Shown: positions 25,614 through 34,725, counted from the first letter of the stretch. The stretch is 64,000 nucleotides of DNA from an uncultured Chlamydiae bacterium (GCA_963713615.1 CAVQMM010000001.1:640001-704000), one strand, 5' to 3'. Notes: generated by a model not told the origin, from the letters alone. Numbers and translations are program-made.

Positions 25614-27257
25614 ATGTTTAAGAACCATTCGATACGCTTCCAATTTATTTTTTCCATTTGTGTCGTCTCTATGTTTTTGGTTCTTGTGGCTGGTTTGGGT
25701 TTACGCAGCGCGCAGCAGACGCAGGCTACTCTAGACCACTTCTACAGCGACCTATTTCGTTCGATGAGTAAACTGCAGGCTATTCAAGATATCTATGACG
25801 GGATCATTAGAACCTCCATCTACCGATTGCTTACCAAGACCGCTGATGGTGCCGAGGTTATTGATGTTGTCGATGAGGCTGTGGCTGCTGCTCAGGTGCA
25901 CTGGAAGGCTTACTCGGATGTCGAACGCGCACGCGATGTGGGTGGACGTCACTTGCTCAACAATGAGTACTCTAATGCGATGGATAGCGTTAACGTCTCT
26001 TGGCTAACCCTCAAGGGTATCATTCATAATAATGAAACCAAGAGGATCACTGGTTATATCATCGAAGATTTTTATCCCAAGCTGGATGGGCTGAATCGTC
26101 GTTTTTCCCAGCTGATGAATCGCTGGATGGATCAGCTAGATAATGATCGTCAGGCTGCTGAAGACGAAGCCATGACCACCCGTAAAGGCTTAGCTGTGGC
26201 AGCGGCATTAGGCATTATCGCTGCAGCTCTATTGGCTTTGGCTTCAGTCACTAAGGTTTCTCGTGCTATTAACGGACTGATTGACCAGATCGAAAAGATT
26301 CATGCTGAACATGCAGACTTTACCAAGCGCATTATCATCTCAGGGAATGACGAAACCAAACAGATTTCTCAGCGCTTTAATTACTTCATGGACACTCTAT
26401 TAGGGGCATTGCGGCGAGTAAAGATATCCGGATTATCGGTCGTTACAGCCATGCCTGAGATCACCAGTTGCTCCAAGGAGATGGCGCGTCGTATCAATGA
26501 CTTTAGTAACTTTACCACTGAAGTGGGTGCTACAGCGAATCAGATTTCGGCGACGTCACAGGAACTTGTTAAGTTGATGACTGATGTCTCCGATACAGCG
26601 ACAAAGACGGCGGAGCTAGCGACGTCGGGCCAGAGCGAGCTAGGCCGTCTGGAGACAACGATGTCTCAGATGGAAGAAGCCTCACGGCAGATCTCCAAGC
26701 GTCTAGCCGTTATCAGTGAAAAGGCCGCTAATATTACGACGGTTGTGACAACCATTAACAAGTTTGCCGATCAGACGAATCTCTTATCCCTTAATGCCTC
26801 TATAGAAGCTGAAAAGGCAGGCGAATATGGCCTCGGCTTTGCTGTAGTAGCTCGCGAAATCCGTCGTCTAGCAGACCAAGTGGCCCTGGCTACTTTAGAC
26901 ATCGAGCAAATGGTTAAGGAAATGAAATCCGCCGTAGCCTCAGGGGTTATGGAGATGGATAAATTCACGGATGAAGTCCGGCACGATGTTCGCGATGTTC
27001 GTAACATTGGATCACAGCTAGCCCAGATCATCGAGCACGTTCAGACCCTGCTACCATGCTTTGAATCGGTTCACGGAGCTGTCCAAGCTCAGGCTGATGG
27101 AGCCCGTCAGATCAGTGATTCGATGGTCCAGTTAAGCGAAGCGGTCGATGAAGCATCGGCGACGCTGCGTACAAATAGTGGAACTGTAGGACAACTTACC
27201 CAAGCTTCGATGGACTTACAGAAAGAGATGTCGGGCTTTAGGGTGGATCTAGCGTAG
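25614..27257 (+). CDS. Methyl-accepting chemotaxis protein (WspA-like)
   Basis: Two TM segments, HAMP region, ADQTNLLSLNASIEAEKAGEYGLGFAVVAREIRRLADQ signalling domain. Confidence 0.93.
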   Translation: MFKNHSIRFQFIFSICVVSMFLVLVAGLGLRSAQQTQATLDHFYSDLFRSMSKLQAIQDIYDGIIRTSIYRLLTKTADGAEVIDVVDEAVAAAQVHWKAYSDVERARDVGGRHLLNNEYSNAMDSVNVSWLTLKGIIHNNETKRITGYIIEDFYPKLDGLNRRFSQLMNRWMDQLDNDRQAAEDEAMTTRKGLAVAAALGIIAAALLALASVTKVSRAINGLIDQIEKIHAEHADFTKRIIISGNDETKQISQRFNYFMDTLLGALRRVKISGLSVVTAMPEITSCSKEMARRINDFSNFTTEVGATANQISATSQELVKLMTDVSDTATKTAELATSGQSELGRLETTMSQMEEASRQISKRLAVISEKAANITTVVTTINKFADQTNLLSLNASIEAEKAGEYGLGFAVVAREIRRLADQVALATLDIEQMVKEMKSAVASGVMEMDKFTDEVRHDVRDVRNIGSQLAQIIEHVQTLLPCFESVHGAVQAQADGARQISDSMVQLSEAVDEASATLRTNSGTVGQLTQASMDLQKEMSGFRVDLA

Positions 27258-27267
27258 GGAAAACATC

Positions 27268-27714
27268 ATGTTGATGCTGCTGTTCTACGTCGGCGAAGAG
27301 CGCTATGCCTGTATCTGCGATAATATTGTAGAGATTATCCCACAGGTACCTTTGAAGAAAATCGCTCTGGCACCGGAGTATGTTCCCGGCCTTCTCAATT
27401 ATGGTGGAATGCCAGTGCCAGTTGTAGACTTTAGCCTCTTGTGTGCCGGGCGTGGTAGTGCATCCTATCTCAGCACGCGGATTATTATCTTCCGCCGCCA
27501 GATCGAAAATCGGCCGGAGGAAACCTTAGGTTTGATGGCGGAACGTGTCACAGATACGATTGATCGCAATCCAATGGACTTTGTCAGTTCAGGATTCAGT
27601 CTACGAGAAGCAAAGTATGTTGGGGGAGTGATCAACGACAATCAAGGTTTAATCTATCATTTGTTGATTGATGAGCTGTTCGATACTGTCCACAAGGTCT
27701 TCGCTACAAGATAG
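27268..27714 (+). CDS. CheW-like adaptor (WspB-like)
   Basis: GLLNYGGMPVPVVD, STRIII and LGLMAERVT motifs. Confidence 0.9.
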   Translation: MLMLLFYVGEERYACICDNIVEIIPQVPLKKIALAPEYVPGLLNYGGMPVPVVDFSLLCAGRGSASYLSTRIIIFRRQIENRPEETLGLMAERVTDTIDRNPMDFVSSGFSLREAKYVGGVINDNQGLIYHLLIDELFDTVHKVFATR

Positions 27715-27725
27715 GATTTGCATCC

Positions 27726-32441: not shown

Positions 32442-32452
32442 GAGTAAATATT

Positions 32453-33502
32453 GTGCGTGTAGCAATTGTAAACGACATTGTCATGGCCGCCGAAGTGCTC
32501 AAGCGCTTGGTACTGTCAGTTCCGGGCTATGAAGTGGCCTGGCTAGCCTATGACGGTAACGAAGCTATCCAGCGCTGTGCTGTGGATACCCCTGATCTGC
32601 TTTTGATGGATTTAGTGATGCCCGGGATATCCGGAGCAGAGGCCACCCGGCAGATCATGAGCCGGAGCCCCTGTGCCATTTTGCTGGTCACCGCCAGTGT
32701 CACGGGAAATATCAGCTTGGTATTCGATGCCATGGGCCATGGAGCGCTCGATGTTACCGCACTTCCTGTCGTGGGCAATAACATTGACAGCGATGGTGCA
32801 CAGAAGCTCCTGCAAAAGATTAAAATGATGCATCGCTTGATCGGCAAGGAAGATAAGCCCAGCCTGATCGCACCTATAACCCCTACACCACCGGTCGCTA
32901 GCTCCGACGGGGTACCGCCCATCATTGTCATAGGAGCATCCACAGGGGGGCCATTAGCTATTAGTACAATACTCGCTAAGTTGCCGGAAGAATTTCCTGC
33001 AGCCATAGCAATCGTACAGCACGTCGACTGTCCATTTGTCGAGAATCTGGTTAACTGGCTTTCGGAACATTCATCCCTCCCGGTCAGAATAGCCCGCGAG
33101 GGCGCCGTACCGCGGGCGGGCATTGTTTTGGTAGCAGGGACCACAGAGCATATGGTGCTCACCAAAAACCTTCAGATCCACTACACTCAGCATCCGAAGG
33201 CTAGTGCGTATCGTCCATCCGTCGATGTCTTCTTCGATAGCGTAGCTCGTCATTGGCCTCAGCGAGGTGTTGGTATTTTACTCACCGGGATGGGTAAGGA
33301 TGGCGCACAAGGCCTTAAGAGCCTTCGAGAAGTGGGATGGCCCACCATCGCGCAAGACAGAGAGACCTGTGTGGTCTATGGTATGCCCAAAGCTGCAATT
33401 GAAATTGATGCTGCTAGTCATGTATTGCCTCTTGAGGAGATTGGAGCCGAGCTCATTAAGCTGGTAAAGCCTGACCTAAGCCATACAGGGAGGTCATCAT
33501 GA
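32453..33502 (+). CDS. CheB methylesterase REC-CheB (WspF-like)
   Basis: GASTGGP, VQHVD, YRPSVD, LTGMGKDGA and VVYGMP motifs. Confidence 0.94.
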   Translation: MRVAIVNDIVMAAEVLKRLVLSVPGYEVAWLAYDGNEAIQRCAVDTPDLLLMDLVMPGISGAEATRQIMSRSPCAILLVTASVTGNISLVFDAMGHGALDVTALPVVGNNIDSDGAQKLLQKIKMMHRLIGKEDKPSLIAPITPTPPVASSDGVPPIIVIGASTGGPLAISTILAKLPEEFPAAIAIVQHVDCPFVENLVNWLSEHSSLPVRIAREGAVPRAGIVLVAGTTEHMVLTKNLQIHYTQHPKASAYRPSVDVFFDSVARHWPQRGVGILLTGMGKDGAQGLKSLREVGWPTIAQDRETCVVYGMPKAAIEIDAASHVLPLEEIGAELIKLVKPDLSHTGRSS

Positions 33503-34725
33503 ACGAAGCGACAACTTTAGAAGCTTCTCTCCCTCAGGCTCTAGAAGGTCACAAAGAGACTCCACAGATTAAGGTCCTTTTGGTCGACGACCAGCTTATC
33601 GTAAGTGAGCGCGTGCGGGCCATGTTGTCCGATGCACCTGACGTTCATTTCTTCTACTGCCAGGAACCCCTAAAAGCGATCGAAATGGCCGAAGAAGTCT
33701 GTCCTACTGTCATCCTTCAGGATCTAGTAATGCCTGAAATTGACGGATTAGTCTTAGTGCGGTATTTCCGTGCGAATCCTCACACGCGCGATGTTCCGAT
33801 GATTGTTTTATCGGCTCAAGAAGAACCTAAAATCAAAGCCGAAGCCTTTTCCTTAGGTGCCAATGACTACATGGTTAAACTTCCCGACAAGGTAGAACTC
33901 CTCGCCCGAATTCGTTATCACTCTCAGAGCTACATACGTTTGCTCGAGCGAAACGAAGCCTACCTTCGGCTTGAGCAAAGCCAGCAAGTTCTTAAGCGAG
34001 AACTGGCCGATGCTGCTGAGTACGTCCGATCACTGCTACCCTTGCCAATAGCCGATGATATTCTGACTGCTACCTGGGAGTTTATCCCTTCCGCCCTGCT
34101 AGGAGGAGATTCCTTTGGCTACCACTGGCTTGATAATGACCATTTTGCCATTTATCTATTGGATGTATGTGGTCATGGGGTGGGAGCCGCACTGCTGTCT
34201 ATTTCCGTCACTAACCTACTGCGTTCGCAGGCTCTGAGTAATACGGACTTCCTTAAGCCCAATACAGTTTTAGAAGCCCTCAACGATGCCTTTCAGATGG
34301 AGGAACATCGCAACATGTTCTTCACAATGTGGTATGGCGTCTACAATCGGCGTACGCGTAATCTTGTTTACGCCAGTGGAGGACATCCACCAGCGGTCCT
34401 TGTTACCGGTAATGATCAAAAAAGCGCTGTAACCAAGCTCCTAAAAACCCCAGGATTGGTAGTTGGTGGCATGTCCAAGACGACATATACCAGCGATCAA
34501 TGTCAGGTAGGCCCCTACAATAAGTTGTTTGTATTCAGCGATGGTGTTTACGAGCTTGCCGGATCTCAAGGAATGACCCTACAGCTTGATGATCTCATTA
34601 AAGTTATGCAGGAACCAGGTAAGGCCGAAGACGATATGGATCGCGTCGTACACTTCGCCCGACGTGTGAATATGGAAAAACCCTTCCCTGATGACTTCTC
34701 GCTTGTTAAAATCGTGTTTGTGTAA
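33499..34725 (+). CDS. Response regulator: WspR-type receiver fused to a PP2C/SpoIIE (RsbU-like) phosphatase
   Basis: PTVILQDLVMP...GANDYMVKLPD...ARIRYHS receiver and stalk; GGDSF, LDVCGHGVGAA, SDGVYE and DDFS phosphatase motifs. Confidence 0.9.
   Translation: MNEATTLEASLPQALEGHKETPQIKVLLVDDQLIVSERVRAMLSDAPDVHFFYCQEPLKAIEMAEEVCPTVILQDLVMPEIDGLVLVRYFRANPHTRDVPMIVLSAQEEPKIKAEAFSLGANDYMVKLPDKVELLARIRYHSQSYIRLLERNEAYLRLEQSQQVLKRELADAAEYVRSLLPLPIADDILTATWEFIPSALLGGDSFGYHWLDNDHFAIYLLDVCGHGVGAALLSISVTNLLRSQALSNTDFLKPNTVLEALNDAFQMEEHRNMFFTMWYGVYNRRTRNLVYASGGHPPAVLVTGNDQKSAVTKLLKTPGLVVGGMSKTTYTSDQCQVGPYNKLFVFSDGVYELAGSQGMTLQLDDLIKVMQEPGKAEDDMDRVVHFARRVNMEKPFPDDFSLVKIVFV

What the first reader, a model, noticed from the sequence alone, without database searches (positions are those of the whole stretch)
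25614..34725. Complete Wsp-like chemosensory system wired to a PP2C phosphatase instead of a diguanylate cyclase
Seen in sequence: gene order MCP, CheW, CheR-TPR, CheW, CheA-REC, CheB, response regulator, the same as Pseudomonas wspABCDEFR. The last protein keeps a WspR-like receiver and stalk (PTVILQDLVMP, GANDYMVKLPD, ARIRYHS, RNEAY), but its output is a SpoIIE/RsbU-type phosphatase with intact metal-binding Asp motifs. Established: WspR is REC-GGDEF; chlamydiae use an RsbU/RsbV/RsbW partner-switch, and chemosensory genes have been reported in some environmental chlamydiae. Inference: surface or envelope sensing may feed into partner-switching, for example developmental-cycle control, instead of c-di-GMP.
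Basis: partly seen in the sequence, partly recalled or inferred. Interest (0 to 1): 0.7.

Follow-up and report, generated by a model that had tools for sequence, protein, structure and literature searches.

The report
Wsp-type operon with phosphatase output
An environmental chlamydia with no flagellin or c-di-GMP cyclase match carries a complete Wsp-type signalling operon ending in a protein phosphatase; this architecture is already catalogued, but the chlamydiae that carry it lack the usual membrane sensor RsbU, so the phosphatase likely takes over resetting the RsbV/RsbW switch that is thought to pace chlamydial growth and development.

Summary
Observation confirmed: MCP, CheW, CheR-TPR, CheW, CheA-REC, CheB, then a WspR-type receiver and stalk fused to an intact SpoIIE/PP2C domain. 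The architecture is not new. A 2012 table lists such clusters in Methylococcus and Desulfovibrio, chemosensory genes in non-motile chlamydiae were reported in 2011, and this scan noted it on other DNA.

Added here is the genome context. The genome has no GGDEF match and no membrane RsbU/CT589, yet keeps the ancestral RsbV and RsbW. Among 300 Chlamydiota, 33 have this phosphatase and 0 of 33 have membrane RsbU, against 172 of 267 others. That exclusion reflects only 1-3 events. An anti-anti-sigma domain accompanies an intact SpoIIE in 220 of 223 genomes, against 6 of 77 without one. In 7 genomes this is the only intact SpoIIE; all 7 keep RsbV.

Best reading (0.58): it replaces RsbU as the RsbV phosphatase. 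Substrate, signal and the sigma-66 step are inferred, not shown. New member of a known kind; interest 0.5.

The parts
25614..27257 (+). WspA-type chemoreceptor: 2 transmembrane segments, four-helix-bundle-like periplasmic domain, HAMP, signalling domain; lacks consensus methylation sites
   Evidence: Pfam; hydrophobic segments at residues 6 and 190 and gap-free alignment of the signalling domain with the two reference receptors; 0 consensus sites here and in L001, L002, L004, L114
27268..27714 (+). CheW (WspB position)
   Evidence: PF01584 1.4e-17; 35-38% identity to the reference clusters
27726..28967 (+). CheR-TPR methyltransferase (WspC position)
   Evidence: PF01739 8.6e-39 plus TPR families
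28960..29565 (+). Second CheW (WspD position); ATG overlaps the CheR stop
   Evidence: PF01584 3.3e-17; start codon
29553..32441 (+). Hybrid CheA-REC kinase (WspE position): His-less Hpt (Arg55), active-type Hpt (His228), HATPase, CheW, receiver (Asp888); numbering from the GTG at 29553
   Evidence: Pfam; motif positions and Hpt alignment; 45-46% identity to the reference kinases
32453..33502 (+). CheB methylesterase with receiver (WspF position)
   Evidence: PF01339 2.2e-59; PRK12555 at 435 bits, cut-off 342
33499..34725 (+). Output regulator: WspR-type receiver (D30, D31, D75, S105, K127), one long helix (131-178), SpoIIE/PP2C phosphatase (D204, D222-x-x-G-H-G, D348-G349, D398-D399)
   Evidence: Pfam; PDB sequence search; invariant columns; AlphaFold2 model with mean pLDDT 89.4; Foldseek top hits P. 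aeruginosa RssB and, at rank 14, the SiaA PP2C domain

Best explanation
This is a Wsp-type (ACF-class) chemosensory operon whose WspR-like receiver is fused to an intact SpoIIE/PP2C phosphatase, and that phosphatase likely stands in for the missing membrane sensor RsbU by dephosphorylating the genome's ancestral RsbV, which would bind the kinase RsbW and would probably free sigma-66. Shown: the gene set and domains; intact catalytic and phospho-acceptor residues; no GGDEF, flagellin or membrane RsbU/CT589 match; presence of a miaA-linked RsbV with its phosphorylation motif and of RsbW; co-retention across genomes. Inferred: receptor signal to CheA His228, transfer to Asp75, activation through the 131-178 stalk as in WspR, RsbV-Ser-P as substrate, and sigma-66 as the RsbW target (by analogy with C. 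trachomatis; it is the only sigma-70-family match in the genome). The sigma-66 step is the weakest, about 0.6 if the rest holds. The stimulus is unknown. An orphan receptor of the same length class at G000:C1:602827-605031, which keeps a methylation site, probably feeds the same kinase.
For: (1) Intact PP2C and receiver residues, invariant in 30 of 30 aligned homologues. (2) G000 has RsbV directly 5' of miaA, with the motif YLSSAGM, matching the published position and motif of the phylum-wide RsbV2/RsbV, and a standalone RsbW. (3) Fourteen membrane SpoIIE-type queries hit only three SpoIIE domains in G000 and no chlamydial-type sensor region. The slot between rsgA and the CCA-adding enzyme, which holds rsbU in L094, holds other genes here. 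The other two SpoIIE domains are a kinase fusion lacking all four Asp motifs and a REC-SpoIIE-HATPase-STAS fusion with its own kinase and STAS. (4) 33 of 300 scored Chlamydiota genomes have the orthologue (E<1e-100, next best 5.8e-48); 0 of 33 have membrane RsbU, against 172 of 267 others. (5) STAS over the TIGR00377 cut-off occurs in 220 of 223 genomes with an intact SpoIIE and in 6 of 77 without. (6) Seven genomes have this protein as their only SpoIIE above 100 bits (G216, G025, G038, G075, G145, G226, G299). All 7 keep a standalone RsbV and 6 of 7 a standalone RsbW. In G299 both genes lie next to the phosphatase. (7) Eleven genomes have only this protein plus the four-domain fusion; 11 of 11 keep standalone RsbW and RsbV. 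Five genomes with the fusion alone have standalone RsbW in 0 of 5 and RsbV in 1 of 5. (8) Outside chlamydiae, the gene directly downstream of the orthologue is an RsbW-type kinase in 30 and a STAS in 3 of 80 loci (8 of these 33 were checked by Pfam and 8 of 8 confirmed). The closest full-length plasmid match sits between an anti-sigma gene and a STAS gene.
Against: No biochemical or expression data. In G000 neither rsbV nor rsbW is near the operon. The RsbU exclusion is clade-level: the RpoB tree needs 2 changes for membrane RsbU and 3 for this phosphatase, well-supported branches force only 1, and it is a quick tree with one genome per family. RsbU-less families also contain genomes without this protein: 10 use other SpoIIE proteins and keep RsbW 10 of 10; 17 have no intact SpoIIE, yet 4 keep a standalone RsbW (G055, G118, G263, G289) and 2 keep both RsbW and RsbV, including the single-contig G055. 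So the switch can persist without any SpoIIE, perhaps served by the Cpp1-like PP2C. G000 has a second standalone STAS and a second active-looking SpoIIE. The orthologue is adjacent to CheA in only 23 of 32 relatives (the rest are on other contigs), and several have lost CheR or CheB. The papers disagree on whether RsbU acts on RsbV2 (one search says no; cites both results).
Confidence: 0.58

Rival explanations
1. The phosphatase serves a partner switch, but its real substrate is another STAS protein (the second standalone STAS at G000:C1:3287995-3288363, or the STAS inside the four-domain fusion), or RsbW controls something other than sigma-66, as in several non-canonical switches.
For: G000 has three RsbV-like STAS domains. 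In G299 the adjacent STAS is not miaA-linked. Non-canonical STAS switches with unknown targets are described (passages). RsbV2 was a poor or non-substrate of RsbU in some assays.
Against: G025 and G145 have a single TIGR00377 match, the miaA-linked RsbV, and this protein as their only intact SpoIIE. Only one sigma-70-family gene was found in G000.
Confidence: 0.2
2. The phosphatase does serve RsbV, but it is no longer governed by this chemosensory front end. It is constitutive or phosphorylated by other kinases, and the receptor and adaptation genes are decaying.
For: The MCP lacks consensus methylation sites in five related genomes, and the first Hpt lacks His. G216 lacks CheR and CheB in the cluster, and G270 lacks CheB between CheA and the regulator. 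Most Opitutales loci carry the regulator plus RsbW with no che gene nearby.
Against: All seven frames are open, and three junctions overlap start and stop codons. CheA was found in 32 of 32 relatives with the orthologue and in 5 of 30 others, the latter all weaker matches. The MCP is 75-93% identical in close relatives.
Confidence: 0.12
3. The phosphatase acts on substrates of the Hanks-type kinases (for example secretion-system proteins) rather than on a STAS protein, and RsbV is reset by the Cpp1-like PP2C.
For: G055 and G118 keep RsbV and RsbW with no intact SpoIIE. A Cpp1-like PP2C is present, and Cpp1 is described as broad-specificity.
Against: The domain is SpoIIE-type, not PP2C_2-type. 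Orthologues are followed directly by RsbW or STAS genes in 33 of 80 loci. RsbV-type STAS is absent or weak in 71 of 77 genomes without an intact SpoIIE.
Confidence: 0.1

Closest known systems
Pseudomonas Wsp system (WspA-F, WspR) and the Burkholderia WspH variant; ACF class of chemosensory pathways
   Same: Same gene order, CheR-TPR, two CheW, hybrid CheA-REC, and a receiver plus stalk closest to WspR among solved structures. Gene-by-gene identity of 32-50% to two annotated clusters.
   Different: Output is SpoIIE/PP2C, not GGDEF (WspR) or a histidine kinase (WspH; passages). No GGDEF match in the genome. Extra His-less Hpt, and the receptor lacks consensus methylation sites.
ACF clusters with a REC-Ser/Thr-phosphatase regulator in Methylococcus capsulatus and Desulfovibrio salexigens (PMC3447774, Table S2)
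   Same: Same cluster type and same regulator architecture. Three Methylococcaceae loci carry orthologues at 52-54% identity beside Wsp-type genes.
   Different: Listed only as two table rows, with no function or substrate. I did not obtain those two proteins, so orthology to them is inferred. In the Methylococcaceae loci a STAS gene follows directly; here it does not.
Chlamydia trachomatis Rsb partner switch (RsbU/CT588, CT589, RsbV1, RsbV2, RsbW, sigma-66)
   Same: G000 keeps the miaA-linked RsbV with the Y[MIL]SSAG motif and a standalone RsbW. The phosphatase domain is the same Pfam family as RsbU.
   Different: No membrane RsbU or CT589 type found. The candidate phosphatase is cytoplasmic and would be controlled by Asp phosphorylation rather than periplasmic metabolite binding. 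No second sigma-70-family factor.
Shewanella oneidensis Che1 with the CrsR/CrsA partner switch controlling RpoS
   Same: A chemosensory locus genetically tied to a partner switch that controls a sigma factor (passages of PMC9855816).
   Different: Che1 is F7 class and encodes its anti-sigma regulator and antagonist in the locus. Here the class is ACF, and RsbV and RsbW are elsewhere on the chromosome.
P. aeruginosa RssB (REC-PP2C; PDB 3EQ2, 3F7A) and the SiaA PP2C domain
   Same: Closest full-length sequence and fold matches: receiver, long helix, PP2C domain.
   Different: About 26% identity. The receiver here is WspR-type, and the gene ends a chemosensory operon.

Membership tests
Wsp-type / ACF chemosensory pathway | Gene order MCP, CheW, CheR-TPR, CheW, CheA-REC, CheB, multidomain response regulator | tested here: met
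   same order as the annotated clusters
Wsp-type / ACF chemosensory pathway | Components closest to Wsp-type counterparts and receptor signalling domain of the same length | tested here: met
   CheA 45-46% against 28-30% for the genome's second CheA; gap-free receptor alignment; WspR is the best PDB hit
Wsp-type / ACF chemosensory pathway | Assignment by the Wuichet-Zhulin/MiST class models | not testable with these tools
Wsp-type / ACF chemosensory pathway | No flagellar output | tested here: met
   No Flagellin_N match in G000, 99.1% complete; other flagellar and pilus genes were not searched
Wsp system in the strict sense (R-system) | Terminal REC-GGDEF diguanylate cyclase | tested here: not met
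   The C-terminal domain is SpoIIE; no PF00990 match in the genome
Wsp system in the strict sense (R-system) | Receptor with methylation sites for CheR/CheB adaptation | tested here: inconclusive
   0 matches to the consensus pattern (recalled, not from a call) in this MCP and four relatives; 2 in each reference; 1 in the orphan MCP. Non-consensus sites cannot be excluded.
SpoIIE/RsbU-type PP2C phosphatase | PF07228 above cut-off and PP2C fold | tested here: met
   133.6 bits against a cut-off of 25; Foldseek TM 0.84 over the SiaA PP2C target
SpoIIE/RsbU-type PP2C phosphatase | Four metal-binding Asp motifs | tested here: met
   D204, D222, D348 and D398/D399 are invariant and align with membrane RsbU motifs
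SpoIIE/RsbU-type PP2C phosphatase | Metal-dependent dephosphorylation of a STAS phosphoserine | not testable with these tools
   Needs an assay; only genomic co-retention and neighbourhood were tested
Chlamydial RsbU (CT588) orthologue | Two transmembrane segments, periplasmic sensor, HAMP, about 580-680 aa | tested here: not met
   The protein is REC-SpoIIE, 408 aa; profile A1 scores G000 at 1e-34 against 1e-83 or better for true members
Chlamydial Rsb partner switch (downstream half) | RsbV 5' of miaA with Y[MIL]SSAG, and a standalone RsbW kinase | tested here: met
   published criteria
Chlamydial Rsb partner switch (downstream half) | RsbW binds sigma-66 | not tested
   Shown for C. trachomatis in the literature (passages); here only one Sigma70_r2 match was found

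The most novel reading that the evidence does not exclude
In a large branch of environmental chlamydiae the metabolite-sensing membrane phosphatase RsbU was lost and displaced by a Wsp-derived receiver-phosphatase. The chemotaxis-like genes of these non-motile intracellular bacteria, unexplained since 2011, would then be the input of the RsbV/RsbW/sigma-66 switch that paces growth and the developmental transition: a chemoreceptor array controlling a housekeeping sigma factor.
Probability: 0.4. Interest if true: 0.7.

Novelty: new member of a known kind. Interest (0 to 1): 0.5.

Why it matters
It joins two loose ends in chlamydial biology. Chemosensory gene sets in non-flagellated environmental chlamydiae were proposed to regulate 'yet unknown cellular functions' (passage). 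RsbU was reported lost in environmental chlamydiae that keep RsbV2 and RsbW (passage), which leaves open what resets the switch. This operon offers one concrete, three-protein answer that can be assayed in vitro. The architecture itself would not surprise a chemosensory specialist.

Tried and rejected
Literature: ten full-text searches found no paper linking a chlamydial chemosensory cluster to RsbV/RsbW. The library lacks most subscription papers. Wuichet and Zhulin 2010 and Bouillet 2016 were not held, and I did not read Collingro 2011 or Supplementary Figure S5 of Collingro 2017, any of which may already show this regulator. Junker 2024 Table S2 lists 'phosphatase' accessions for Parachlamydia, Protochlamydia, Criblamydia and others. 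I could not resolve them, and some may be this protein. Domman and Horn state that 'RsbU2' is present in environmental chlamydiae, whereas my profile, which included CT589-type rows, found none in the families carrying this operon; this is unresolved.

Complex prediction of the phosphatase domain with RsbV was not available; nothing was folded. No RNA holder was listed, which says nothing about expression. The promoter scan of 25300-25700 gave 1 site, equal to chance. The careful RpoB tree did not finish, so the quick tree was used; G228 was left out because its rpoB match was in pieces. G005 was not scored in the phylum searches. G195 was left out of the 'fusion only' group because its three SpoIIE matches were not resolved; it has a miaA-linked RsbV and no standalone RsbW.

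Rejected ideas: that the 536-aa kinase-SpoIIE protein is RsbU (it lacks all four Asp motifs); that rsbU survives as a remnant at its syntenic site; a statistical test of the RsbU exclusion (genomes are not independent); c-di-GMP output through another gene (no GGDEF).

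
Full report
Observation. The seven genes are present at the stated coordinates, in the order MCP, CheW, CheR-TPR, CheW, CheA-REC, CheB, REC-SpoIIE, with start/stop overlaps at three junctions. Residues 24-166 of the last protein match WspR far better than any other solved receiver (3BRE 6.6e-49; the next receiver families are near 1e-15). 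Its full length matches the REC-PP2C protein RssB of P. aeruginosa (5.3e-30). An AlphaFold2 model (mean pLDDT 89.4) shows a receiver, one helix from 131 to 178 and a PP2C fold. Receiver residues D30, D31, D75, S105 and K127 and phosphatase residues D204, D222, G225-H226-G227, D348-G349 and D398-D399 are invariant in 30 aligned homologues. Each gene is 32-50% identical to its counterpart in two annotated clusters that end in a diguanylate cyclase or PleD-family regulator.

Organism and distribution. The closest named relatives are Chlamydiales/Chlamydiae MAGs. They come from Chlamydiota, Opitutales, Planctomycetota, Smithellaceae, Methylococcaceae, Melioribacteraceae and others. Of the 80 loci, 40 have a CheA core, 46 have some che gene, and 33 have a partner-switch gene directly downstream (30 RsbW-type, 3 STAS). 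Eight loci have both a che gene and a partner-switch gene, and 9 have neither, several of them short contigs. Pfam confirmed 8 of 8 downstream genes scanned from those 33. The STAS and RsbW profiles were built from few seeds and may miss distant members.

What is known. PMC3447774 (passages, section 9 and the whole of Table S2 seen) lists REC-Ser/Thr phosphatase regulators in CheR-TPR clusters of Methylococcus capsulatus and Desulfovibrio salexigens. It also says the ACF class table of Wuichet and Zhulin includes phosphatase outputs; I could not fetch that paper. PMC5604735 and PMC5826181 (passages) report chemotaxis gene sets in non-flagellated Parachlamydiaceae and Criblamydiaceae, function unknown. 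PMC8552884 (passages) describes only WspR and WspH outputs in Beta- and Gammaproteobacteria. PMC9855816 (passages) gives a precedent for a che locus tied to a partner switch. Earlier notes of this scan describe the same architecture in other genomes, one of them a chlamydia, with the same proposed target; they were read after my reading was formed and are not evidence.

The genome's partner-switch parts. G000 (3.97 Mb, 99.1% complete) has no GGDEF and no flagellin match and one sigma-70-family match. It has a standalone STAS directly 5' of a gene I read as miaA, with the motif YLSSAGM. This is the position and motif published for the phylum-wide RsbV2/RsbV (PMC11619594: passages, section 5 and part 1 of supplementary file 2 seen). 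It also has a second STAS, a standalone RsbW, a REC-SpoIIE-HATPase-STAS fusion, a kinase with an Asp-less SpoIIE-like tail and a Cpp1-like PP2C. The membrane RsbU and its paralogue are missing: 14 membrane SpoIIE-type queries from other chlamydiae hit only the three SpoIIE domains, plus one weak HAMP-region hit in the orphan MCP. The site between rsgA and the CCA enzyme that holds rsbU in L094 holds two unrelated genes. PMC4652624 (passage) already noted loss of RsbU in environmental chlamydiae, but says 'RsbU2' is kept, which I could not reproduce in these families.

Phylum survey. One sample of 301 Chlamydiota genomes, at least 85% complete, was searched four times; 300 were scored. The orthologue occurs in 33 genomes from 12 families, with a clear score gap. 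A profile of 11 membrane RsbU/CT589-type proteins gives E of 1.1e-83 or better in 172 genomes. None of the 33 is among them; their best E is 2e-63 or weaker, which I read as SpoIIE-domain cross-hits. CheA was found in 32 of 32 relatives, adjacent to the regulator in 23, and in 5 of 30 other genomes chosen mostly from the RsbU-less families. An anti-anti-sigma domain over the TIGR00377 cut-off occurs in 220 of 223 genomes with an intact SpoIIE and in 6 of 77 without (the handle lists were typed by hand and agree with the tools' totals). So in this phylum RsbV is normally kept only with a SpoIIE phosphatase.

Which phosphatase keeps the switch alive. A HATPase_c_2 gene not fused to SpoIIE occurs in 31 of 32 relatives with the orthologue. 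In seven genomes the orthologue is the only SpoIIE above 100 bits. All seven keep a standalone RsbV, miaA-linked in six and adjacent to the phosphatase together with RsbW in G299; six keep RsbW, the exception being the 280-contig G145. Eleven genomes, G000 included, have only the orthologue plus the four-domain fusion, and all keep both genes. Five genomes with the fusion alone have no standalone RsbW, and one has a standalone RsbV, so the fusion looks self-contained. A second type of chemosensory or REC-SpoIIE locus in G234, G095 and G115 encodes STAS and RsbW directly after the phosphatase.

Results against. The exclusion is not 33 independent observations. On an RpoB tree of 30 genomes (quick IQ-TREE, no outgroup), membrane RsbU needs 2 changes and this regulator 3, and starred branches force 1; ten carriers form one branch at 99% SH-aLRT. 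That branch probably corresponds to the Parachlamydiales, since named chlamydial loci carry such titles; this is an inference. Ten RsbU-less genomes use other SpoIIE proteins and keep RsbW, so the replacement is not unique. Of 17 genomes with no intact SpoIIE in these families, 4 keep a standalone RsbW and 2 keep both genes. The operon's receptor lacks consensus methylation sites in G000 and four relatives, the first Hpt lacks His, and CheR or CheB are missing from several relatives' clusters, so adaptation may be weak or rely on the orphan receptor. Reports differ on whether RsbU acts on RsbV2.

Mechanism. Shown: anatomy, intact active-site residues, absence of the usual RsbU, presence and co-retention of RsbV and RsbW. 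Inferred: the receptor array modulates CheA; His228 passes phosphate to Asp75; the stalk activates the PP2C domain as it does the cyclase of WspR (recalled); RsbV-P is dephosphorylated and binds RsbW; sigma-66 is released, as modelled for C. trachomatis (passages of PMC13463777 and PMC11619594). Confidence is 0.58 to the level of RsbV, and lower for the sigma-66 and developmental steps. The stimulus is unknown; envelope sensing is an analogy only.

Verdict. Real and correctly described. It works like Wsp but is not a WspR system, and its output works like RsbU but is not an RsbU orthologue. The architecture is a new member of a catalogued kind. The displacement of RsbU in environmental chlamydiae was not found in ten searches and is directly testable with a few purified proteins. 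Interest 0.5; novel case probability 0.4, interest 0.7 if true.

Noticed in passing
window 24726-25273: Non-coding palindromic element just upstream of the operon (inverted arms of 86 and 51 nt); 93 blastn hits in about 78 places span its core across the genome. MITE/REP-like.
   Followed up: partly
G000:C1:283744-295081 (-), L192: Second chemosensory cluster, read from sequence and blast as CheW, CheR-TPR, CheW, CheA-REC, two MCPs, CheB, REC-HisKA-HATPase; the last gene is in two frames.
   Followed up: partly
G000:C1:602827-605031 (-): Orphan chemoreceptor, 41-43% identical to the reference WspA-type receptors, with one consensus methylation site; a likely second input to this CheA.
   Followed up: partly
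G000:C1:2574044-2576122 (+), L090: Whole partner switch in one 692-aa protein (REC-SpoIIE-HATPase-STAS), directly after a gene I read as rpoN and before sugar-transferase-like genes; similar 680-780 aa frames recur in the RsbU-less families.
   Followed up: partly
G000:C1:3389402-3391012 (+), L092: Pkn5-like kinase beside genes I read as type III secretion components, with a C-terminal SpoIIE-like domain lacking all four Asp motifs; its kinase part keeps HRD and DLG motifs. Similar weak SpoIIE hits in 510-570 aa frames occur in most genomes.
   Followed up: partly
G000:C1:3120802-3122489 (-): The only sigma-70-family gene is split over two reading frames, probably an assembly error.
   Followed up: no
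L019, L022, L023, L025-L029 and other Opitutales loci: The same WspR-receiver/PP2C gene is paired with an RsbW-type kinase gene, mostly with no che gene within the locus.
   Followed up: partly
G234:C1:59449-61788 (L117): Here the regulator shares a frame with CheA and is cut short, and no close match to the miaA-linked RsbV was found (best 6.3e-10). Possible co-decay or sequencing error.
   Followed up: no
window 17596-24056 (-): Arginine succinyltransferase-type cluster: AstB, aldehyde dehydrogenase, AstA, class III aminotransferase, M20 peptidase.
   Followed up: no
window 41318-50299 (-): 2993-aa protein with GH94 and glucoamylase-like domains, resembling cyclic beta-1,2-glucan synthases (name recalled).
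   Followed up: no
window 11109-12023 (-), 15336-15974 (+), 38477-40186 (+), 58607-59473 (+): OTU-like cysteine protease, PEP-CTERM protein, MORN-repeat protein and MqsA/SocA-like antitoxin.
   Followed up: no
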